This document shows, piece by piece, positions 43,268 to 50,046 of a stretch of DNA of 64,000 bases. The stretch's first letter is position 1, and the number at the start of each line of letters is the position of its first letter. The notes under the pieces were generated by a model. That model did not search any database. It had not been told where the DNA came from and saw only the letters and a list, made by a program, of their open reading frames with translations. This DNA comes from Candidatus Latescibacterota bacterium (GTDB taxonomy: Bacteria; Latescibacterota; UBA2968): assembly GCA_965204375.1 (NCBI GenBank), contig OZ241986.1, positions 4,352,001-4,416,000 on the forward strand, in the 5' to 3' direction. The position numbers and the translations under genes are program-made.

Positions 43268-43428
43268 AGTAAGAAGTTAGAAGTTAGAAGGCCCGCCCCA
43301 ACCACCCAAAGGCTGGTACTTCTCCCTTCACCCTTCACCCTTCACCCTTCACCCTTCTCCCTTCACACTTCTCCCTTCACACTTCACACTTCTCCCTTCA
43401 CACTTCACACTTCTCCCTTCACACTTCT
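43268..43428. repeat. heptamer tandem repeat C(A/C)CTTC(A/T), about 15 copies, facing an inverted AGAAGTT tract
   Basis: Direct reading; lies between convergent genes and supplies the last codons of the 43405 CDS. Confidence 0.85.
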
Positions 43429-44163
43429 AACAATCCTCCGACTCCTCTTCAGTGCATCGAGAGGATCTGGAATATCCGACTTCAGTTCCAGACTCATATT
43501 CCCGGCATATTTGACCGAAAGAAGCGCGGCAAATGTAGATCGCAGCACCTCCCGCGTAAGCACCCCATCGCACAGACCCAGGTGCAGATCCTCCTCCCCA
43601 TCATTATCATCGAGATGAACATAACCCAGCCGGTCTCCTGCCAGCGCGATCATATCCGCGGGATCTTCATTCGCCATCTGTGCGTGACCGATATCAAAAA
43701 GCAGATACAGATTGGGGTGACCAATCTCCTCGAGATAAGTGAGCGTAAACGGCACCGTCGGCAAAAACGTACCCGGAAAGTGTTCAACAGCGAGCTTGAC
43801 ACCCGCATCCTGCGCCTGATCAGCCAGCACACTCAAAGACTCGGCAAACAGATCGGCATCATCGCCCTGGGGCACCAGGTACGCCGTCGTTGCACCGAGC
43901 CGAGCACCGTGTTCAAACGCCCGATTTATATGATCGCGTGCGGATTGTGGATTATCTCCTGTCAGAGACATCCCCTCGGGCATATCGGCAGAAGCGGCAA
44001 TACACGAAACAGCGAGACCGAGATCCTTCGCCCGTTGTTGAAGATCGGCAGTCTGAAGCCAACCCGGACGAATATCAATATGGGTAAACCCCGCATCGGC
44101 AACCTGTTCTAAAGCGAGTTCCTCGGCACAGGTCAGTGCCCATATACATGCAGCGAGAGACAT
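43405..44163 (-). CDS. sugar-phosphate isomerase/epimerase (TIM barrel)
   Basis: AVEH, FDIGH, VHLDDNDG, SLELK metal ligands. Confidence 0.85.
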   Translation of the reverse strand: MSLAACIWALTCAEELALEQVADAGFTHIDIRPGWLQTADLQQRAKDLGLAVSCIAASADMPEGMSLTGDNPQSARDHINRAFEHGARLGATTAYLVPQGDDADLFAESLSVLADQAQDAGVKLAVEHFPGTFLPTVPFTLTYLEEIGHPNLYLLFDIGHAQMANEDPADMIALAGDRLGYVHLDDNDGEEDLHLGLCDGVLTREVLRSTFAALLSVKYAGNMSLELKSDIPDPLDALKRSRRIVRSVKGEV

Positions 44164-44189
44164 GGTGGCTCCTTTGAAAAATAAAACCG

Positions 44190-44217
44190 AACCCCAGGCG
44201 ATTTTTCGTCTGGGGTT
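44190..44217. terminator. intrinsic terminator-like hairpin
   Basis: AACCCCAGGCG...CGTCTGGGGTT. Confidence 0.55.
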
Positions 44218-44253
44218 TAGTGTGAAATAAATGGGAGAAGAGGATAGAGCCGG

Positions 44254-44634
44254 TTAGTTATCAGCGGGTTCGACCACAGAGGCACCCTTTGGTTTGCGGT
44301 GCATTCGTGCGTAGGTCTCCGCCAGAAGATCGCGCAATTCCTCGGCAATCTCTGGATGAGGATTACCGGCGAGAGCTTTGCAGGCCAGTTGCTCGGCTAA
44401 ACGGAACTGGTTGCTATTAAACGCCATCCACCCGGCACTGCGGTGCAGCACGGACCACGTTGGCTCGGCGTGGTCGCCGCGCTCATCCAATTCCCTAATG
44501 GCAGCAAGCTCCAATTCCAACGCTTCGGCATAAAGCTGGATAGCCTTTTCCTTGTGACCGCGTGTTCGTTCCAGAATAGCTGTTTCCACGAGGTCCATGG
44601 CCTGGTTGTGAGGGTTGGTCGTAGTGGCACTCAT
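44254..44634 (-). CDS. small helical (TPR-like) hypothetical protein
   Basis: 126-aa ORF directly after the Rpn gene; SVLHRSAG...EIAEELRDLL. Confidence 0.7.
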   Translation of the reverse strand: MSATTTNPHNQAMDLVETAILERTRGHKEKAIQLYAEALELELAAIRELDERGDHAEPTWSVLHRSAGWMAFNSNQFRLAEQLACKALAGNPHPEIAEELRDLLAETYARMHRKPKGASVVEPADN

Positions 44635-44646
44635 TGGAAAATCAGA

Positions 44647-44907
44647 TCACGCATCTAACACGCGCTCAAATGCCTCAAGGCTGGACGCTTGAATCGCCGC
44701 ACGGTGCAACTGCTTCAGACGTTGCAAATCTTCAATAGCGGCAATGCGCGTGGATAGAGGGTGCGCTTCGCTCAGGTCAAATCGAATCTCCAACACTTCG
44801 AGAATATCTTCGAGCGTGCTTTTTCTTTCGCCTTGCTCAATACCCTGCTCAATACCCAATTGCTTAATGTATTGTGCAAACGATGACTCGCGCATAATGG
44901 CGTCCAT
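44647..44907 (-). CDS. putative intragenic small C-terminal Rpn product (RpnS-like), 86 aa
   Basis: In-frame ATG at 44907 preceded by AGGAGG at 5-nt spacing. Confidence 0.55.
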   Translation of the reverse strand: MDAIMRESSFAQYIKQLGIEQGIEQGERKSTLEDILEVLEIRFDLSEAHPLSTRIAAIEDLQRLKQLHRAAIQASSLEAFERVLDA

Positions 44908-45540
44908 AAGACCCTCCTGTAATAGAATACGATTGATCAGGCTCGGATCATACTCTAACCCACTCAATATCATCAACCTGCCCAAAAAGTCAACCTTTAT
45001 TGATTCATCCACCCGCAGAGCATTCGTCGCGTCAACACAGTGATGTAACCACGCTTCTGAATCTATTCCAACAGGACGTTTCATCAACGATGCAAATGGA
45101 AACAAGCCCGAAGGTCCGTCATCAAGAATATCCTGTCCCTCTATCTCACTGAGCCGAATCACTGTGTATTTGATCACAACAAGATGGCCGGATATTTCCT
45201 GAACAAAGTGCCCCGGATCGCGCCGACCCGCACTGCGCCGCAAATAGATCACGCTGGAATAAATCGGCAGGCCATGCTGCTCAATCGCACGTATAATGTA
45301 GCCCGCCATGCGGATCGGCATAGATGGATCGTCAGTCGTTTGAAACTCGTGATGGATCAATGTCTCCTTGCCCGCAATGTGGACGCGGATGAGGCTGTCA
45401 GTGTGTCGTGTTTCAACTGTCTTTTGCTCTGTGTCGAGTATGTCGAGGACTTCTACATCGTCCTGTTCAAGTGTGAGTCGGATGAAGTCTTTGGGATAGG
45501 TCTGGATGAGATGTTTGGAGATGGTGTCATATTCGGCCAT
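44647..45540 (-). CDS. Rpn/YhgA-like PD-(D/E)xK nuclease
   Basis: YDTISKHL, RHTDSL...HHEFQ, MPIRMAGY, EQGIEQG repeats. Confidence 0.85.
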   Translation of the reverse strand: MAEYDTISKHLIQTYPKDFIRLTLEQDDVEVLDILDTEQKTVETRHTDSLIRVHIAGKETLIHHEFQTTDDPSMPIRMAGYIIRAIEQHGLPIYSSVIYLRRSAGRRDPGHFVQEISGHLVVIKYTVIRLSEIEGQDILDDGPSGLFPFASLMKRPVGIDSEAWLHHCVDATNALRVDESIKVDFLGRLMILSGLEYDPSLINRILLQEGLMDAIMRESSFAQYIKQLGIEQGIEQGERKSTLEDILEVLEIRFDLSEAHPLSTRIAAIEDLQRLKQLHRAAIQASSLEAFERVLDA

Positions 45541-45827
45541 GTGGAATGCCCTGAGTCTGATGGGTGAATTCTATTTTAAAACACACGCAACAGTCAGACC
45601 CGAAGCAAATATCAAGCCAACGTCACAGAGATTGAGCGATAAATTGTATAGACAGAAGCTCAAGTACCCTCATCATGCTTTTAATATGCTGTATTGCGCT
45701 CTTAACTTGAATATAAAGATCGCCTTGGGAAGCACATACAAACCGAACACGCCGGGATGTAAAAGTGTACGTTTTGAGCCATGAATGGGCGGTCATGTGA
45801 AAGATATGTACCGCTACCTCTCGCGCC

Positions 45828-46526
45828 TCACAACCCCTGATTCTTTTCTCTCAACGACCATGATCTATCCGGATTGTGATACAACCACTGCTCCATATTT
45901 TCTTTAATCCGGGACCATTCCGTATCCAGCATGGAAAACCACGTCGTATCCCGGTTGCGGTCCTTAACAATCAGATGCTGGCGAAAAAGCCCTTCATACG
46001 TGAACCCCAGGCGGAGCGCAGCAGACCGCGAGCGTTCATTGAGCGCATCGCATTTCCACTCCACACGGCGATAACGCATACAATCAAAAGCCTCGCAAAG
46101 CATGAGATACGCCGCCTCGGTATTCGCACACGTATTTTGTGCCTCGGGACCATACCAGATATTTCCAAGCTCCAACCGACGCGCATCGGGTGCAATATTC
46201 AAAAAACTCACCATACCAATAGGCCGACCAGATAATTTATCCCGAACACAAAAAAAGAGCGGATCCTCCGAACGCTCAATCCCCTCAAGCCACGCCTGCA
46301 TGTCCGACACATCTTCAAAAGGCCCATACGCCATATACGTCCACAACTGCTCCACGAGTTCCGTCCCATGCGAACATGCAAACAATCCGGGTGCATCCTT
46401 TTCCGGATCGAGCGGCGACAGCGCAATATACTCACCTTCATAATCCACTCGTCGCGGGACACGCACTTCAGACACAGACGGAACAAAATCGCCAACGGGA
46501 AGAGACAGCATCGAGTTTATCTCCAT
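45828..46526 (-). CDS. RimL-like GNAT acetyltransferase
   Basis: YRRVEWKCDALNERSRSAALRLGFTYEGLFRQH...NRDTTWFS. Confidence 0.9.
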   Translation of the reverse strand: MEINSMLSLPVGDFVPSVSEVRVPRRVDYEGEYIALSPLDPEKDAPGLFACSHGTELVEQLWTYMAYGPFEDVSDMQAWLEGIERSEDPLFFCVRDKLSGRPIGMVSFLNIAPDARRLELGNIWYGPEAQNTCANTEAAYLMLCEAFDCMRYRRVEWKCDALNERSRSAALRLGFTYEGLFRQHLIVKDRNRDTTWFSMLDTEWSRIKENMEQWLYHNPDRSWSLREKNQGL

Positions 46527-46675
46527 AAGCTATAGTTAGTGTAATATTCTGAATATATTCGGCATATTCTTTGACAAAACCAAAAAAATTAAGGTTTCCC
46601 CAAAATGGGGATTATGTAGTTGAGTAGCATGATCGCTCCTCCTTTCAGTTTCAATTTAGAAAATATGAATATTCA

Positions 46676-46704
46676 TTGACATTGTAAAAGGGATTCGATA
46701 GATT
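46676..46704 (+). promoter_or_regulatory. sigma70-like promoter of passenger ORF 46813
   Basis: TTGACA-17-TAGATT. Confidence 0.6.
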
Positions 46705-46812
46705 ATCAGCATCTGTCAAATTACTGATATTTTTGTCTTACATTACGAATATACGTTTTAGCCCTGACGGACAAACTCACGGAAGCCCTGACGGCATCCA
46801 AAGGAGAGTTCC

Positions 46813-47268
46813 ATGGATATACAGAGACTCATTAAAGAAGAGTACAAGGAGCATGAACCTTTCTATTGCAAGGAACACGCTTTGGCAATATCGAAAAGGA
46901 ACGTACTCGAAAGAATTGTGCGCGAGCGTTCTGGAGAGCCTGAGGTAGTCCCCTCGATCTGGGATAACAAGCGGGCACCTACTCCGATTGTGGTGCCAGG
47001 GGGATCTGGTGGCGAAGCCATAGGTGTTGCTTTAGTCGCTTTGCTCATCGGCGGCGGCTATGCGCTATACAAATGGCTATCCAGTGACGATGCCCAAACG
47101 TCGTCCAATGACACTTCTGGCAACTCTGGTGCCCCTTCTGTGAATGAGCAACTCAACCGCATCGAGGAAAGGCTCGACGGACTCGACGCGAAACACGCCG
47201 ACATTGAAAGGGCGCAAGATAGAGCGAAAGCCATCCTGGACCGCCTTAAAGTTCCCGAAGCGGCTTAA
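46813..47268 (+). CDS. passenger protein with one TM helix and C-terminal coiled coil
   Basis: AAGGAG RBS; AIGVALVALLIGGGYALYKW; LNRIEERLDGLD. Confidence 0.7.
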   Translation: MDIQRLIKEEYKEHEPFYCKEHALAISKRNVLERIVRERSGEPEVVPSIWDNKRAPTPIVVPGGSGGEAIGVALVALLIGGGYALYKWLSSDDAQTSSNDTSGNSGAPSVNEQLNRIEERLDGLDAKHADIERAQDRAKAILDRLKVPEAA

Positions 47269-47280
47269 CCATATTACATG

Positions 47281-47365
47281 AAAAAAGCCCTGGCGGTATC
47301 GAGTCAAACTGCTGATAGCATTAGAGCATTCAAGTTTGTCCGTCAGGGCCATGAGAGCTAATTTC
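47281..47365 (-). ncRNA. candidate antisense RNA A, convergent with ORF 46813
   Basis: GCCCTGGCGG/CCGTCAGGGC stem with U-tract on the minus strand; complementary to the 46813 leader; weak upstream promoter (TTGCGA-19-TAAAAT). Confidence 0.45.
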
Positions 47366-47437
47366 CTGTCATAATTTTATGCCAGAAAAAGGGAGATTTC
47401 GCAACTAAAATACTGCCCACTTGGGCAGTAAAAACAC

Positions 47438-47466
47438 TTGCATTTCAGAGGTTACGATGTTATCTT
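47438..47466 (+). promoter_or_regulatory. transposase promoter, overlapped by inverted repeat GGTTACGAT/ATCGTAACC
   Basis: TTGCAT-17-TATCTT with a TGn extended -10. Confidence 0.55.
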
Positions 47467-47504
47467 TATATCAAATCGTAACCCCTTATTTTTTGGGTAG
47501 ATAT

Positions 47505-47588
47505 AAAAAGGGCGAGACCTATGTTCGCGCATAGGTCTCGCCCGACTGCCCTCCATCAAGCTAAACAAAGTGACATTGCCTTAGCTTG
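47505..47588 (-). ncRNA. candidate antisense RNA B, opposite the transposase leader
   Basis: Minus-strand TTGCAA-17-TATTTT (47622-47594); CAAGCTAA/TTAGCTTG hairpin; perfect 14-bp terminator stem 47510-47543 plus U-tract. Confidence 0.55.
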
Positions 47589-47641
47589 AACAAAAAATAA
47601 CGGGTAGCCACACAAATTGCAAGAGAAAAGTGAGGTGTGCT

Positions 47642-48607
47642 ATGGCTACCAATGCCCCTGGCATGCATTTCCGTGAGGGCATGTCTCTGATTCAGTTGTT
47701 CCAGATGTTTCCTGATGATGAGGCTGCCGAGAAGTGGTTTGTTCACACGCGCTGGCCGGATGGGATGGCCTGTCCGCACTGTGGGAGTACGAATGTCAAC
47801 GAAAAGGCCACACACCCTACGATGTCCTTCAGATGCCGAGAATGTGTCAAATACTTCTCGCCAAAGACGGGCACCATCATGGCACGATCTAAGCTCGGAT
47901 ACCAGATATGGCTTATTGCCATCTATCTCTACACCACACACCTTAAAGGCGTGTCCTCTATGAAGCTACACAGAGACCTCGACATCACACAGAGAACCGC
48001 CTGGTTCTTACTCCATCGCATCAGGCACGCCATGTCTGAGGAGGAACAGACCCTCTTTGAGGGCACAGTAGAAGTCGATGAGACGTATATCGGTGGGAAG
48101 GAAGGGAACAAACACGCCAAAGACAAACTGCGTACTGGCAGAGGCACAGCAGGCAAAGTCCCTGTGGCCGGTGTCAAGAACAGAGACACAAAGCAAGTGC
48201 AGGCAATCGTGATCGACGAGGCCGATGAGGACACGTTGAAAGTGTTTATTGAGGATACTGTGGCGCGTGGGGCCACTGTCTATACGGACGGCTCACACGT
48301 CTATAACAGTCTGGAGGGGTATGAACACGAAAAGGTGATTCACTCGCGGGGCGAATACGTCCGGGGGGATGTGTGGACAAACGGCATCGAATCATTCTGG
48401 TCAGGGATCAAACGCGGCATTATGGGCGTGTACCACAAGATCAGCCCAAAGCACCTGTGGCGATATGTCACAGAGTTTGTGGCACGCCAGAACATGCGGA
48501 TGCGAGACACCATCGACCAGATGACGCTCATTGTGCGGAGGTTCGAGGGAAAACGGCTAAGGTATGCAGACTTGACGGCACTGTATCCATCGCTGGAATT
48601 ACGTTGA
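47642..48607 (+). CDS. IS1595-family DDE transposase
   Basis: RWPDGMACPHCGS...CREC zinc ribbon; VEVDETYIGG, YTDG, TNGIESFW. Confidence 0.95.
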   Translation: MATNAPGMHFREGMSLIQLFQMFPDDEAAEKWFVHTRWPDGMACPHCGSTNVNEKATHPTMSFRCRECVKYFSPKTGTIMARSKLGYQIWLIAIYLYTTHLKGVSSMKLHRDLDITQRTAWFLLHRIRHAMSEEEQTLFEGTVEVDETYIGGKEGNKHAKDKLRTGRGTAGKVPVAGVKNRDTKQVQAIVIDEADEDTLKVFIEDTVARGATVYTDGSHVYNSLEGYEHEKVIHSRGEYVRGDVWTNGIESFWSGIKRGIMGVYHKISPKHLWRYVTEFVARQNMRMRDTIDQMTLIVRRFEGKRLRYADLTALYPSLELR

Positions 48608-48773
48608 CAGGCACGGCGATATGATGTATAACTAAACTGTGCAGAACGCACAAATGGAAATGACTCACCCCGTAGAAGGTGAGCCATTCCAAACACTAAA
48701 ATTCATCGCCGACAGATGATGCCTAAACTTACATCACTTGGGGGCATCTGTCAAGGCGGAAAGGAAGCATGCT

Positions 48774-48947
48774 ATGCCCTTCAATAAAGAAGAAGCCTTG
48801 CAGGAGATGGAGGCAGAGCGGGTAGCATTAGAGGTCTATCTGCGCCGGAACGGAGAGACGCCACAATCCATCCAACGGCGCATACCGAAGGCGCCACCAC
48901 CCATAGAATCAAAGCCGATCATGCCGACAGTGCCACCACCCATTTGA
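48774..48947 (+). CDS. passenger microprotein (57 aa, Pro-rich tail)
   Basis: AAAGGA RBS; downstream of a TTGACA-17-TATAAC promoter (48604-48632). Confidence 0.5.
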   Translation: MPFNKEEALQEMEAERVALEVYLRRNGETPQSIQRRIPKAPPPIESKPIMPTVPPPI

Positions 48948-48960
48948 ACGGAGGGTAGTC

Positions 48961-49170
48961 ATGAATCAGCCAGTACTTATTGAACCTGAGAGTGTAGTAG
49001 TGGACCGTAGCCCTATGCCAATTCCTCGTCCGGTGACACTTGCTATTCATTATCGCACCTCAGATGGTGCATTGTCTGTCATAGTGTTCGGATTGACCGT
49101 ACCACAGGCAGATAAATTGGAGTCGGATTTACGTCTAAAGAGGGGAGAAGCCTCAACATCAGGAATATGA
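48961..49170 (+). CDS. passenger microprotein (69 aa)
   Basis: GGAGG RBS. Confidence 0.5.
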   Translation: MNQPVLIEPESVVVDRSPMPIPRPVTLAIHYRTSDGALSVIVFGLTVPQADKLESDLRLKRGEASTSGI

Positions 49171-49277
49171 AGCATAAACATACATCCATCTGGTATCTCT
49201 AACGACGCCTGAAACTTCGCCATTTCTTCCCAGTTTATTTCGTAATCGCTGGCTTTTTGCTGTTCTGAAGTAGCCAT
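49050..49277 (-). CDS. passenger microprotein (75 aa), overlapping the previous ORF antisense
   Basis: Very strong AAGGAGGTG RBS before ATG at 49277. Confidence 0.45.
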   Translation of the reverse strand: MATSEQQKASDYEINWEEMAKFQASLEIPDGCMFMLHIPDVEASPLFRRKSDSNLSACGTVNPNTMTDNAPSEVR

Positions 49278-49323
49278 CTCTCTCACCTCCTTCTGAGATT
49301 AAAATATCAGGTTGGAAAATCAC

Positions 49324-49941
49324 ATGCAAATATACACCCCAGGTGGATTGACAATCAAGTTACATGCAGACCGGGTTGAGCGTGTATTAAAACCTGTCCG
49401 TCATCTCATAAACATCGAAGATGCTTTCGTTGATATTCAATTATGGGCAAACTTCCCCGGTAATATGTTGTCAATTTTAGCTATTATTACTGCTCTAACC
49501 ACACAGTCATGGACTTCGGTATTGATTGTGGGTGTTCTTGGCTTTGTTTTGGTCGATCTCTACCAACAATTTTTTTACTCACGTTTTCTCAAGGTGTTAT
49601 TTCCTTTTGTATTAGGGGCGTTCTACGTCACACTGCCAGCCTCATTGATCACCATTTATATTTTATATCAAGAAGGTGCTATTATAGCTGGAATCACTCA
49701 GTTTGTTATGGTTCTTATGGACATTACAGGCATTGCCGATTTGATTTTATTTTTTTCTACGCCTATTAGGTTTTCTGTCCGATGCCTCTTTGGCAAAAGA
49801 GCAAAGGAAGGTGCGATTGAAGAGGCCTTTATTAAAATCTTGAATCACAAAGCAAGACAAGTTGGCGTAATTCTCGATTGGCAAAGCTACAATCGCCGAG
49901 AAACTGATACCTCTTTCTTTTTTGGGGATCATGTGAGATAA
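49324..49941 (+). CDS. passenger polytopic membrane protein
   Basis: Low-GC ORF with about 4 hydrophobic segments. Confidence 0.7.
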   Translation: MQIYTPGGLTIKLHADRVERVLKPVRHLINIEDAFVDIQLWANFPGNMLSILAIITALTTQSWTSVLIVGVLGFVLVDLYQQFFYSRFLKVLFPFVLGAFYVTLPASLITIYILYQEGAIIAGITQFVMVLMDITGIADLILFFSTPIRFSVRCLFGKRAKEGAIEEAFIKILNHKARQVGVILDWQSYNRRETDTSFFFGDHVR

Positions 49942-50046
49942 TGCTGCCAGCACACGCATCACTTGCCTCCTTTCGCTCTGCTACTCAGCTACATAATCCC
50001 CCCCAAAATACCCCATTCGCGAACCCAAAACATCGTCCTCTGGAAC

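What the first reader, a model, noticed from the sequence alone, without database searches (positions are those of the whole stretch)
46676..47404. Type-I-TA / phage C4-like antisense circuit around passenger ORF 46813
Seen: the predicted leader has AGCCCTGACGG twice (46760, 46784) just before the RBS. GCCCTGACGGACAAACT (46761-46777) has a perfect 17-nt reverse complement after the stop (47333-47349). A variant copy at 47286 forms an alternative local hairpin with a minus-strand U-tract. Leader GTCAAATTACTGATA (46715-46729) matches 47303-47317 at 13/15. Inference: the mRNA 3' end can fold back onto its 5' leader, and a convergent ~80-nt RNA could pair with both the 3' UTR and the leader. This resembles hok/AapA fold-back control and P1 C4/P4 CI repeats, but for a 151-aa membrane-anchored protein inside an IS.
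Basis: partly seen in the sequence, partly recalled or inferred. Interest (0 to 1): 0.85.

Follow-up and report, generated by a model that had tools for sequence, protein, structure and literature searches.

The report
Split leader-RNA module around transposon gene
The repeats flanking this small membrane-protein gene are real, but they are two halves of a conserved promoter-plus-terminator RNA module that sits in a mobile element, so the match between the gene's two ends comes from shared ancestry and is not shown to be a toxin-antitoxin circuit.

Summary
All the reported motifs are present at the stated coordinates. The 17-nt inverted repeat exceeds chance: the longest in 300 shuffles was 12.

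The region is a passenger cassette, about 46630-47410, just inside the left end of a 3395-bp IS1595-family transposon (46607-50001). The transposon has 23-bp terminal repeats, 8-bp target duplications and two identical genome copies.

The motifs belong to an RNA module with no Rfam match. It consists of a sigma-70-like promoter, a variable 5' segment 'a', an invariant arm 'b-c', a loop carrying a', then b' and a U-tract. I found 13 complete copies, all in one Latescibacterota genus. In 9 of 13 copies the nascent RNA folds a:a'; in 10 of 13 the full RNA folds as a terminator. This points to an attenuator.

In the window, the 5' half of one module is fused at 46794-46798 to the ORF. A second module's terminator half lies inverted after the stop codon, behind a weak minus-strand promoter.

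A 5'-3' fold-back and an ~87-nt antisense RNA are physically plausible, but neither is shown. Type I TA features are not met. No RNA data were available.

The parts
46599..46606 (.). Left copy of the 8-bp target-site duplication (CCCAAAAT); the right copy is at 50002-50009
   Evidence: Flanks printed. The second genome copy has its own 8-bp duplication (TAAAACCG).
46607..46629 (+). Left terminal inverted repeat of the IS1595-family transposon (46607-50001)
   Evidence: A 3395-bp block is 100% identical between two genome places. Its 23-bp ends are 95.7% complementary.
46676..46704 (+). Sigma-70-like promoter TTGACA-17-TAGATT of the module and ORF; the start near 46711 is predicted, not measured
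   Evidence: Best site of the scan, 10 of 12. An equivalent TTGACA or TTGACC hexamer is read by eye upstream of the printed module copies, except the truncated G012 copy and the short variants L134 and L137.
46715..46729 (+). Segment 'a', the variable 5' segment that pairs with a' in complete modules (antiterminator arm)
   Evidence: Alignments. It is the hot spot of divergence against the closest module copy (run X1 record 4).
46760..46777 (+). First b motif plus c (AGCCCTGACGGACAAACT), the invariant 5' arm of the module's terminator hairpin; also the left arm of the 17-nt inverted repeat
46784..46794 (+). Second b motif (b2), as in A-type modules; homology to the module family ends here, at the fusion point 46794-46798
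   Evidence: BLAST to module A stops at 46793. The X4 contig with an ORF homologue starts matching at 46798, after unrelated sequence.
46801..46806 (+). Ribosome-binding site AAGGAG, 6 nt before the ATG
   Evidence: Read.
46813..47268 (+). Passenger ORF of 151 aa: two N-terminal helices, one transmembrane helix (about 68-94), a Ser/Asp-rich linker and a C-terminal coiled coil; function unknown
   Evidence: There are only 11 cluster representatives at E<=0.001 among 1.84 billion.
47281..47349 (-). Terminator half of a second (B-type) module on the minus strand: b-c, loop with a', b', then U6 (47286-47281)
   Evidence: The covariance model matches 47281-47396 on the minus strand at 57.7 bits. 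Alignments; folds.
47303..47317 (-). a' (TATCAGCAGTTTGAC on the minus strand): complementary to the leader's 'a' at 13 of 15 plus one G-U, and a perfect complement of 'a' of module B elsewhere in the genome
47333..47349 (+). Right arm of the 17-nt inverted repeat (c'b' on the plus strand)
   Evidence: repeat I1.
47374..47404 (-). Candidate minus-strand promoter TTGCGA-19-TAAAAT; it would start an ~87-nt RNA near 47367 that ends at 47281
   Evidence: Read by eye. The hexamers are kept in G002 (TTGCGA-19-TACTAT) while 7 of 19 spacer bases differ, and the 17 nt after the -10 are identical. The 16-18-nt spacer scan did not list it.
47411..47430 (-). Second minus-strand terminator-like hairpin, at the cassette / IS-core junction
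47510..47543 (-). Third minus-strand terminator-like hairpin (14 pairs plus a T-run) in the IS left subterminal region
   Evidence: The region 47410-47533 is homologous to the left end of a simple IS copy (L009).
47630..48607 (+). IS1595-family transposase
   Evidence: Pfam DDE_Tnp_IS1595 at 1.6e-38 and Zn_ribbon_IS1595 at 6.1e-09.
49979..50001 (-). Right terminal inverted repeat

Best explanation
The finding is a mosaic built from two partial copies of one RNA module family, with no Rfam match, placed around a passenger gene of an IS1595-family transposon.

The complete module is a small transcription unit. It has a strong sigma-70-like promoter, a variable 5' segment 'a', a linker, a nearly invariant arm b-c (AGCCCTGRCGGACAAAC), a loop carrying a', then b' and a U-tract. 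While it is being transcribed, 'a' pairs with a' over 9-19 bp. Once b' is made, the more stable b:b' + c:a' intrinsic terminator can form. The module is therefore most likely a kinetic antiterminator/terminator switch (an attenuator) in front of accessory genes. This step is inferred from folding and covariation.

In the window, the 5' half of an A-type module (promoter, a, b-c, b2) was fused at 46794-46798 to the ribosome-binding site of a 151-aa membrane-protein ORF. The leader has therefore lost its terminator, and the promoter should drive the ORF without attenuation. This is inferred.

Directly after the stop codon lies the terminator half of a second, B-type module in the opposite orientation. 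It sits behind weak minus-strand promoter hexamers. It should either end or constitute an ~87-nt RNA antisense to the ORF's 3' UTR. This too is inferred.

The perfect 17-nt complementarity between leader and 3' UTR exists because both carry the invariant b-c arm in opposite orientation. It would let a full-length mRNA fold back on itself, but I found no evidence that this pairing is selected or controls translation.
For: Transposon:
- Two 100% identical 3395-bp copies, 23-bp terminal repeats and 8-bp duplications.
- Transposase domains.

Cassette:
- A simple IS copy has its left end followed directly by the homologue of 47410-47533. So about 46630-47410 is an insert.

Module family:
- The window leader aligns at 88% with module A elsewhere in the genome up to 46793. 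The 3' element aligns in reverse orientation at 80-82% with the terminator part of modules A and B.
- A covariance model built from 6 copies finds 13 complete copies. They lie in 7 of the 8 genomes that match, out of 31 genomes of the family searched; the eighth, G002, holds only the truncated leader. All 8 are in one genus.
- The model also finds both window pieces, at 57.7 and 41.6 bits.
- The terminator helix is paired in 92.5% of cells, and 4 pairs change on both sides; 1 of 500 shuffles reaches that (the alignment is fitted to the model).

a:a' pairing:
- Cognate duplexes are -27.8 to -36.4 kcal/mol, with 0 of 500 shuffles as good, in 4 of 6 tested modules. The fifth gives 4 of 500 and the sixth 172 of 500.
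- The sequences differ between types, and cognate pairs are the best or near-best in the cross matrix.
- Before b' is made, the MFE holds a:a' in 9 of 13 modules. The full-length MFE is the terminator without a:a' in 10 of 13.

Breakpoints:
- A contig of run X4 with an ORF homologue has a different leader before 46798.
- A contig of run X5 has a variant ORF end followed by the hairpin and 47350-47383 (14 differences, 5 gaps).
- Contigs of X5 and X6 show the same left end followed by a complete module (all).

Minus-strand promoter:
- The hexamers are conserved in G002 although 7 of 19 spacer bases differ.

Fold-back:
- The 17 long-range pairs have mean probability 0.99 in a 655-nt mRNA. In that MFE the RBS pairs only locally.
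Against: - There are no transcript data of any kind. Promoters, starts and ends are all predictions.
- The minus-strand promoter has a 19-nt spacer and was not listed by the promoter scan.
- The hairpin is better on the plus strand (G-U; z -2.74) than on the minus strand (A-C mismatch; z -1.66). This fits a plus-strand role at least as well as a minus-strand one.
- Two bases of the 17-mer (47333, 47343) differ from the relatives in runs X5 and X6. In both cases the window's version is the one that complements its own leader. That could mean selection or gene conversion for the fold-back, not mere descent.
- a' is conserved in the ORF-linked element although it has no cis partner. This hints at a function I do not explain.
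- The attenuator reading rests on thermodynamic folds. Three short family members lack a and a' altogether.
- The family was found with a pattern and a model built from the conserved arm, so the invariance of b-c is partly ascertainment.
Confidence: 0.6

Rival explanations
1. The ORF encodes a harmful membrane protein. Its mRNA is kept inert by a 5'-3' fold-back and is silenced or destabilised by a convergent ~87-nt antisense RNA that also touches the leader. This would be a type I toxin-antitoxin or C4/CI-like module that stabilises the transposon.
For: - Convergent architecture: a minus-strand terminator right after the stop codon and promoter-like hexamers kept in G002.
- The ORF-hairpin link is kept in a diverged contig of run X5.
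- The fold-back is favoured at equilibrium.
- a' is complementary to the leader's 'a' at 13 of 15 plus a G-U. The duplex is -16.8 kcal/mol, and 4 of 500 shuffles are as good.
- The ORF has a transmembrane helix.
Against: - The ORF is 151 aa with soluble domains, not a short hydrophobic peptide.
- No Rfam family matches at E<=1. There are no PADLOC or PHROG hits.
- The fold-back does not occlude the RBS.
- Leader-a' pairing is no better than non-cognate pairs.
- An ORF homologue exists with an unrelated leader (X4).
- The G002 copy has lost half the ORF and has no hairpin, yet keeps the leader and the minus promoter.
Confidence: 0.13
2. Trans-acting decoy or immunity RNA. The minus-strand RNA from the cassette carries a free a'. 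It acts on other modules of the genome by binding their 'a' segment, which prevents antitermination and shuts off their downstream genes. This would be cross-regulation between mobile elements in the manner of P4 CI RNA or plasmid countertranscripts.
For: - The window's a' is a perfect 15-nt complement of 'a' of module B at genome position 1318819. The cross-duplex is -27.7 kcal/mol, the strongest partner of this a'.
- a' is unchanged while the neighbouring loop and spacer differ from module B.
- The nascent-transcript folds make 'a' the decisive segment.
Against: - The perfect match follows from descent of the element from a B-type module.
- There is no expression data.
- In the predicted hairpin a' is partly paired with c.
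- Module B lies in a nested, partly disrupted element.
Confidence: 0.1
3. Invertible switch. The 17-nt inverted repeats are recombination sites. Inverting 46778-47332 would rebuild a complete module (promoter, a, b-c, loop, a', b', U6) and turn the ORF away from the promoter, giving ON/OFF phase variation.
For: Working, the inverted arrangement reproduces the canonical order of module parts exactly. The repeats are perfect.
Against: - Both genome copies are in the same orientation and 100% identical.
- The transposon encodes no recombinase other than the DDE transposase.
- The leader keeps its own A-type b2 after b-c, while the 3' element is B-type. The present state therefore looks parental, not recombinant.
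- G002 has the same orientation without the right repeat.
Confidence: 0.04
4. DNA-level sites. The a-type segments, with their weak TCA-N6-TGA palindromes just after the promoter, and the b motifs are binding sites of a repressor or of the transposase, not RNA elements.
For: - Segment 'a' overlaps the predicted start region of the promoter and is partly palindromic.
- The sequence of b-c, not only its pairing, is conserved.
Against: - a:a' complementarity extends over 14-17 bp with G-U pairs that would be A-C on the other strand.
- The helices are followed by U-tracts on the sense strand in all 13 complete copies.
- The hairpin has G-U and compensatory changes.
- No regulator gene travels with the module.
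Confidence: 0.05

Closest known systems
Countertranscript-driven transcriptional attenuators of plasmids pT181, pIP501 and pAMbeta1 (recalled from the literature; no paper read here)
   Same: - A leader in which an upstream 'preemptor' segment pairs with part of a downstream intrinsic terminator and so prevents termination.
- The choice is made during transcription.
- A variable pairing segment acts as the specificity determinant.
- The canonical modules show this layout in silico.
   Different: - No countertranscript promoter was found opposite the leader in the canonical modules.
- The context is IS passenger cassettes and accessory ORFs of unknown function, not replication genes.
- In the window the leader has lost its terminator, so there is nothing left to attenuate.
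P4 CI RNA (seqA/seqB/seqC) and P1/P7 c4 antisense RNA (a, b motifs) immunity systems (recalled)
   Same: Short complementary motifs are repeated along one leader. A small RNA is made from the leader region itself, and premature termination is the likely output.
   Different: - No Rfam family matched 44000-50000 at E<=1; Rfam's holdings of C4-type RNAs are recalled, not checked here.
- There are no phage genes: 0 PHROG hits for 5 ORFs.
- The motifs here form one terminator hairpin plus one antiterminator helix, not loop-target pairs at a ribosome-binding site.
Type I toxin-antitoxin pairs with 3'-overlapping antisense RNA (bsrG/SR4, txpA/RatA) and the hok mRNA fold-back (fbi) (recalled)
   Same: A convergent small RNA would overlap the 3' UTR. 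The two mRNA ends are complementary. The location is in a mobile element.
   Different: - The ORF is 151 aa with soluble domains.
- The antisense RNA would not reach the coding region.
- The fold-back does not mask the RBS.
- There is no homology to any known family.
IS1595-family insertion sequences carrying passenger genes (ISfinder classification recalled; one search gave only a search listing of papers that mention both terms, none read)
   Same: A DDE transposase with an N-terminal zinc ribbon, short terminal inverted repeats, 8-bp duplications, and extra genes inside the ends.
   Different: Here the passenger comes with its own promoter-leader module and an inverted terminator. I did not find this described in that listing.
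Antisense control of transposases (IS10 RNA-OUT, IS200 art200) (recalled)
   Same: Small minus-strand RNAs or terminators lie between the IS end and the transposase gene. This IS has three minus-strand terminator-like hairpins at 47281-47543.
   Different: The element studied overlaps the passenger gene's 3' UTR, not the transposase start.

Membership tests
IS1595 family transposon | DDE transposase of the ISXO2/IS1595 type with an N-terminal zinc ribbon | tested here: met
   PF12762 at 1.6e-38 and PF12760 at 6.1e-09 for 47630-48604.
IS1595 family transposon | Terminal inverted repeats and an 8-bp target duplication; more than one copy | tested here: met
   23-bp ends, 95.7% complementary. Duplications CCCAAAAT and TAAAACCG at the two copies. 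Two 100% identical copies.
Type I toxin-antitoxin system | Small (usually under 60 aa) hydrophobic toxin peptide | tested here: not met
   The ORF is 151 aa with one transmembrane helix plus helical soluble parts.
Type I toxin-antitoxin system | Antisense RNA transcribed opposite the toxin mRNA | tested here: inconclusive
   A minus-strand terminator is present. The promoter-like hexamers have a 19-nt spacer; they are kept in G002 but were not listed by the scan. No transcript data.
Type I toxin-antitoxin system | Toxicity of the protein, relieved by the RNA | not testable with these tools
   Needs expression in a laboratory host.
Type I toxin-antitoxin system | Similarity to a curated toxin or antitoxin family | tested here: not met
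   Rfam gave 0 matches at E<=1 in 44000-50000. Pfam gave only a sub-threshold XhlA hit (19.6 bits against a cut-off of 34.7) on the coiled coil. PADLOC gave 0.
P1 c4 / P4 CI antisense immunity RNA | Match to the curated RNA family and a phage or satellite context | tested here: not met
   No Rfam match. 0 PHROG hits for 5 ORFs of the element. That Rfam holds a C4 family is recalled.
P1 c4 / P4 CI antisense immunity RNA | Repeated short motifs in one leader that are complementary to a small RNA made from the same region | tested here: inconclusive
   The motif layout a, b, c, a', b' exists. Processing and trans action are unknown.
Rho-independent (intrinsic) terminator | G+C-rich hairpin directly followed by a U-tract on the transcribed strand | tested here: met
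   On the minus strand: hairpin 47349-47287, then U6 at 47286-47281. On the plus strand no U-tract follows. The simple scan missed it because its loop limit is 8 nt.
Transcriptional attenuator (antiterminator/terminator leader) | Mutually exclusive antiterminator and terminator helices, conserved across homologues | tested here: met
   This holds for the complete modules only. a:a' is in the nascent MFE in 9 of 13; the terminator is the full-length MFE in 10 of 13. Cognate a:a' gave 0 of 500 shuffles in 4 of 6. All in silico.
Transcriptional attenuator (antiterminator/terminator leader) | A terminator present in the leader of the gene in question | tested here: not met
   The window's leader ends at b2 (46794) and runs into the RBS. 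a', b' and the U-tract are missing on the plus strand.

The most novel reading that the evidence does not exclude
The motifs mark a new class of mobile leader-RNA switch in Latescibacterota. It has an invariant terminator arm (b-c) and a freely evolving 'address' helix (a:a') that decides co-transcriptionally between read-through and termination.

The window's transposon carries a dismantled pair of these switches. One half serves as a constitutive promoter-leader for a membrane protein. The other half serves as a small antisense RNA whose exposed a' can bind the 'a' address of another element's switch (it is a perfect match to module B) as well as the ORF's own leader.

This would be RNA-based cross-talk or immunity between insertion elements, comparable to P4 CI or plasmid countertranscripts but carried by an IS.
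Probability: 0.15. Interest if true: 0.7.

Novelty: new variant of a known kind. Interest (0 to 1): 0.42.

Why it matters
If the module is an attenuator with an exchangeable address helix, it would be a compact, mobile way of putting accessory genes under RNA control in an uncultivated phylum for which I know of no described RNA regulator (not searched for).

It would also show how transposons can break such switches apart and reuse the halves, one as a promoter and the other as an antisense RNA or terminator.

For the scan, the lesson is that striking 5'-3' complementarity around a gene can be a by-product of two copies of one repeated RNA element in opposite orientation. On its own it is not evidence for a toxin-antitoxin circuit.

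Tried and rejected
- **Rfam.** The window 44000-50000 gave 0 matches. Loci L007, L004 and L017 gave only a chance HepC_CRE hit at E 0.54.
- **Protein homologue loci.**
  - Genome contigs gave 1 locus, the G002-like record.
  - Metagenome contigs gave 0 of 138 pattern stretches confirmed.
  - Viral contigs gave 0 of 56.
- **Metagenome scan with the 18-nt b-c pattern.**
  - It returned 76 stretches.
  - None has an exact b' downstream.
  - Four have a b'-like 10-mer at up to 2 substitutions, but in G+C-rich coding-like sequence without a U-tract.
  - I treat all 76 as chance.
- **Phylum pattern scan.** 11 of 168 genomes matched. By eye, the 4 matches outside the genus are coding-like chance hits.
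- **RNA evidence.** No RNA holder was listed, so expression could not be examined.
- **Inversion.** The contigs of four runs showed no joints. Contigs drop rare variants, so this says nothing either way.
- **Structure of the ORF product.** Mean pLDDT was 53.9 and pTM 0.19. That is too poor for a fold search, so none was run.
- **Other protein searches.** The Atlas gave no usable hit. PHROGs and PADLOC gave 0 hits.
- **Leader peptide across b-c.** Rejected, because a 1-nt length difference in the linker between A-type copies shifts the frame.
- **Minus-strand ORF 47352-47077 (91 aa).** It starts at the b motif. I regard it as spurious because it runs antisense to the conserved ORF; this was not tested further.
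- **Co-evolution of the window's 'a' toward its a'.** Rejected on the energy matrix.
- **First shuffle control.** One search counted self-overlapping palindromes and was replaced.
- **Genes downstream of other modules.** 5 of 7 tested have no Pfam family. One is an integrase-like protein and one has a zinc ribbon, so they give no functional clue.
- **Literature.**
  - Two full-text searches were seen as listings only.
  - No paper was read, and nothing on such a module appeared in those listings.
  - Supplements were not consulted.
Full report
**Observation**

- AGCCCTGACGG lies at 46760 and 46784, with the variant AGCCCTGGCGG at 47286.
- A perfect 17-nt inverted repeat joins 46761-46777 and 47333-47349.
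- A 13-of-15 direct match joins 46715-46729 and 47303-47317.
- The hairpin 47287-47349 is preceded on the plus strand by A6, which is U6 on the minus strand.

With arms at least 50 nt apart, the longest inverted repeat in 300 dinucleotide shuffles of 46676-47404 was 12 nt, against 17 observed. The number of 10-mer matches in the 64-kb window is not in itself unusual: 7 against a mean of 3.96, and 11 of 100 shuffles reach 7. In the 6.34-Mb genome the 17-mer occurs at 6 places only.

**Context**

A 3395-bp block, window 46607-50001, is present twice in the genome at 100% identity. It ends in 23-bp inverted repeats and is flanked at each place by a different 8-bp direct duplication. It encodes an IS1595-type DDE transposase with its zinc ribbon at 47630-48607. 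The ORF is therefore a passenger of a recently active IS1595-family transposon.

A simpler relative in the same genome has its left end followed at once by the homologue of window 47410-47533. So about 46630-47410 is a cassette inserted just inside the left end. It comprises the promoter, leader, ORF and 3' element.

A record of the same genus is titled as a Candidatus Latescibacterota MAG.

**The ORF**

- It has a good ribosome-binding site: AAGGAG, 6 nt before the ATG.
- It has 5 homologues in the 5.8-billion-sequence collection.
- It has 11 cluster representatives at E<=0.001 among 1.84 billion.
- The homologues share an N-terminal helical part, one transmembrane helix, an acidic Ser-rich linker and a coiled coil.
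- Pfam gives only a sub-threshold XhlA hit on the coiled coil.
- PHROGs, PADLOC and the Atlas give nothing.

Its function is unknown.

**The motifs belong to a module family**

At another mobile-element locus of the same genome (locus L007), the leader sequence recurs at 88% identity. There it continues into a hairpin and a U-tract instead of an ORF. The window's 3' element matches that hairpin part in the opposite orientation.

Searches by DNA, by pattern and then by a covariance model built from six copies gave 13 complete modules:
- They lie in 7 of the 8 genomes that match, out of 31 genomes of the family searched; the eighth, G002, holds only the truncated leader.
- All 8 genomes are in one genus.
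- Both window pieces were also found. The minus strand 47281-47396 scored 57.7 bits and the plus strand 46709-46834 scored 41.6 bits.

None of the 76 metagenome stretches that contain the 18-nt b-c pattern looks like the module. Rfam has no match.

A complete module reads, in order:
- a promoter, TTGACA-17-TAnnnT;
- a variable segment 'a';
- a linker;
- AGCCCTGRCGG ('b') followed by ACAAAC ('c');
- a loop ending in a';
- b';
- U5-8.

The b:b' plus c:a' hairpin is paired in 92.5% of cells, and four pairs change on both sides (the alignment is fitted to the model).

The genes behind the modules differ, and most have no known family.

**What the module probably does**

Segment 'a' is complementary to a' over 14-17 bp in the long copies, with different sequences in different types and with G-U pairs.
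- Cognate duplex energies are -27.8 to -36.4 kcal/mol.
- No shuffle of 500 was as good in 4 of 6 tested modules. The fifth gave 4 of 500 and the sixth 172 of 500.
- In the cross matrix, cognate partners are the best or near-best.

Because a' lies only 4-6 nt before b', the a:a' and b:b' helices can hardly coexist. This is my inference from the geometry.

Folding the transcript as it exists just before b' is made gives a:a' as the minimum-energy structure in 9 of 13 modules. The full-length minimum is the terminator without a:a' in 10 of 13. The terminator is 3-10 kcal/mol more stable than the forced a:a' form in the four copies computed.

This is the layout of a kinetic antiterminator/terminator switch. 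It resembles the preemptor logic of plasmid countertranscript attenuators, which I recall from the literature and did not read here. It rests on folding and covariation alone.

**How the window maps onto the module**

The leader carries the promoter, a, the linker, b-c and a second b (b2, as in A-type copies). Homology then stops at 46793-46794.

A contig of run X4 with an ORF homologue begins to match at 46798, after unrelated sequence. The junction between module and ORF cassette therefore lies at 46794-46798. The leader has no a', no b' and no U-tract.

After the stop codon comes the terminator half of a B-type module on the minus strand: b-c, loop, a', b', U6.

A contig of run X5 has a variant ORF end followed by this hairpin and by 47350-47383, with 14 differences and 5 gaps. 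The hairpin therefore travels with the ORF in at least one diverged relative.

In genome G002 a decayed copy of the same transposon shows the following:
- It keeps the leader.
- It has lost the first half of the ORF, between two GAAGCC words.
- It has a different 21 nt in place of the hairpin.
- The sequences on both sides of the hairpin are kept. Among them are the hexamers TTGCGA and TAnnAT of a possible minus-strand promoter, whose 19-nt spacer differs at 7 of 19 bases.

1. *Fold-back.* In an equilibrium fold of 46711-47365 the 17 long-range pairs have mean probability 0.99 and displace the local hairpin. In that MFE the RBS and start codon pair only locally, among themselves. So the pairing is physically likely in a free full-length RNA, but it offers no obvious translational control.
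2. *Antisense RNA.* The terminator is there. However, it is weaker on the minus strand (A-C mismatch, z -1.66) than the same hairpin is on the plus strand (G-U, z -2.74). The promoter has an unusual spacer, and the scan did not list it.
3. *Pairing of that RNA with the leader.* The duplex is -16.8 kcal/mol (4 of 500 shuffles), which is no better than non-cognate family pairs. The same a' pairs better with the 'a' of G012 (-20.8) and of module B (-27.7), of which it is a perfect complement.
4. *Conservation.* The leader-hairpin combination is seen only in this transposon among the few relatives I could examine.
5. *Toxin-antitoxin membership.* The size and family criteria fail. Toxicity is untestable here.

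Two details keep the functional reading alive:
- At 47333 and 47343 the window differs from the X5 and X6 relatives. In both cases the window carries the base that complements its own leader.
- a' is conserved although it has no partner in cis.

**Inversion**

Exchanging the segment between the 17-nt repeats would recreate a complete module. This is my working. Against it:
- Both genome copies have the same orientation.
- There is no recombinase gene in the element.
- The A-type b2 still follows the A-type leader.

So the present order looks original.

**Verdict**

The best explanation, however, is a mosaic of two halves of an attenuator-like RNA module family with no Rfam match, in which the 17-nt match comes from shared descent.

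The type I TA reading is unlikely (about 0.13). A trans-acting address-RNA reading is the most novel one that is not excluded (about 0.1-0.15).

**Limits**
- All RNA ends are predicted.
- There are no expression data.
- The family is small and confined to one genus.
- The flanks of most ORF homologues could not be fetched.

Noticed in passing
L125:1270-1500 (minus), L125:1765-1994 (minus), L126:1270-1500 (minus); partly L124:854-1080: Behind the A-type, B-type and G016-type modules lies a conserved structured RNA of about 200 nt. It has its own terminator, and its 5' arm can also form a local hairpin, which looks riboswitch-like. A small ORF follows. It has no Rfam match. RNAalifold predicts 33 pairs, 8 of them with compensatory changes in 4 sequences.
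   Followed up: partly
window 47411-47430 and 47510-47543 (minus strand); 47594-47622: Two further minus-strand terminator-like hairpins lie between the cassette and the transposase gene. By eye, a weak minus-strand promoter (TTGCAA-17-TATTTT) before the stronger one would give an ~85-nt RNA next to the transposase start. It may be an antisense or insulator RNA of the IS core.
   Followed up: no
L017:1351-2700 (genome G002): This is a decayed copy of the same transposon. The first half of the ORF is deleted between two GAAGCC words, the transposase reading frame is broken into pieces, and the 3' hairpin is replaced by a different 21 nt.
   Followed up: partly
own genome C1:1314625-1319341 (loci L004, L007): A 4.7-kb IS1595-type element with an 8-bp duplication (GAAAAAAT) carries module B. 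A second IS end at 1318397 is nested inside it. That end carries module A and cuts the small ORF behind module B.
   Followed up: partly
L111, L134, L137 (60 nt upstream of the short module variants): The three short family members (G008, G015b, G016c) lack a and a'. They share another conserved upstream element that contains a CGGCAC...GTGCCG hairpin. Its nature is unknown.
   Followed up: no
window 43319-43427: A tandem array of a 7-nt unit (CTTCACC, 15.6 copies, 84% matches) lies between two convergent genes.
   Followed up: no
window 48738-49941: There are further passenger ORFs of the transposon: 69 aa, 69 aa, and a 209-aa multi-pass membrane protein with a sub-threshold ThrE hit. None has PHROG or PADLOC matches.
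   Followed up: partly
window 46543-46568: A 26-bp AT-rich palindrome lies just outside the left end of the transposon, upstream of the divergent GNAT acetyltransferase gene (repeat I6).
   Followed up: no
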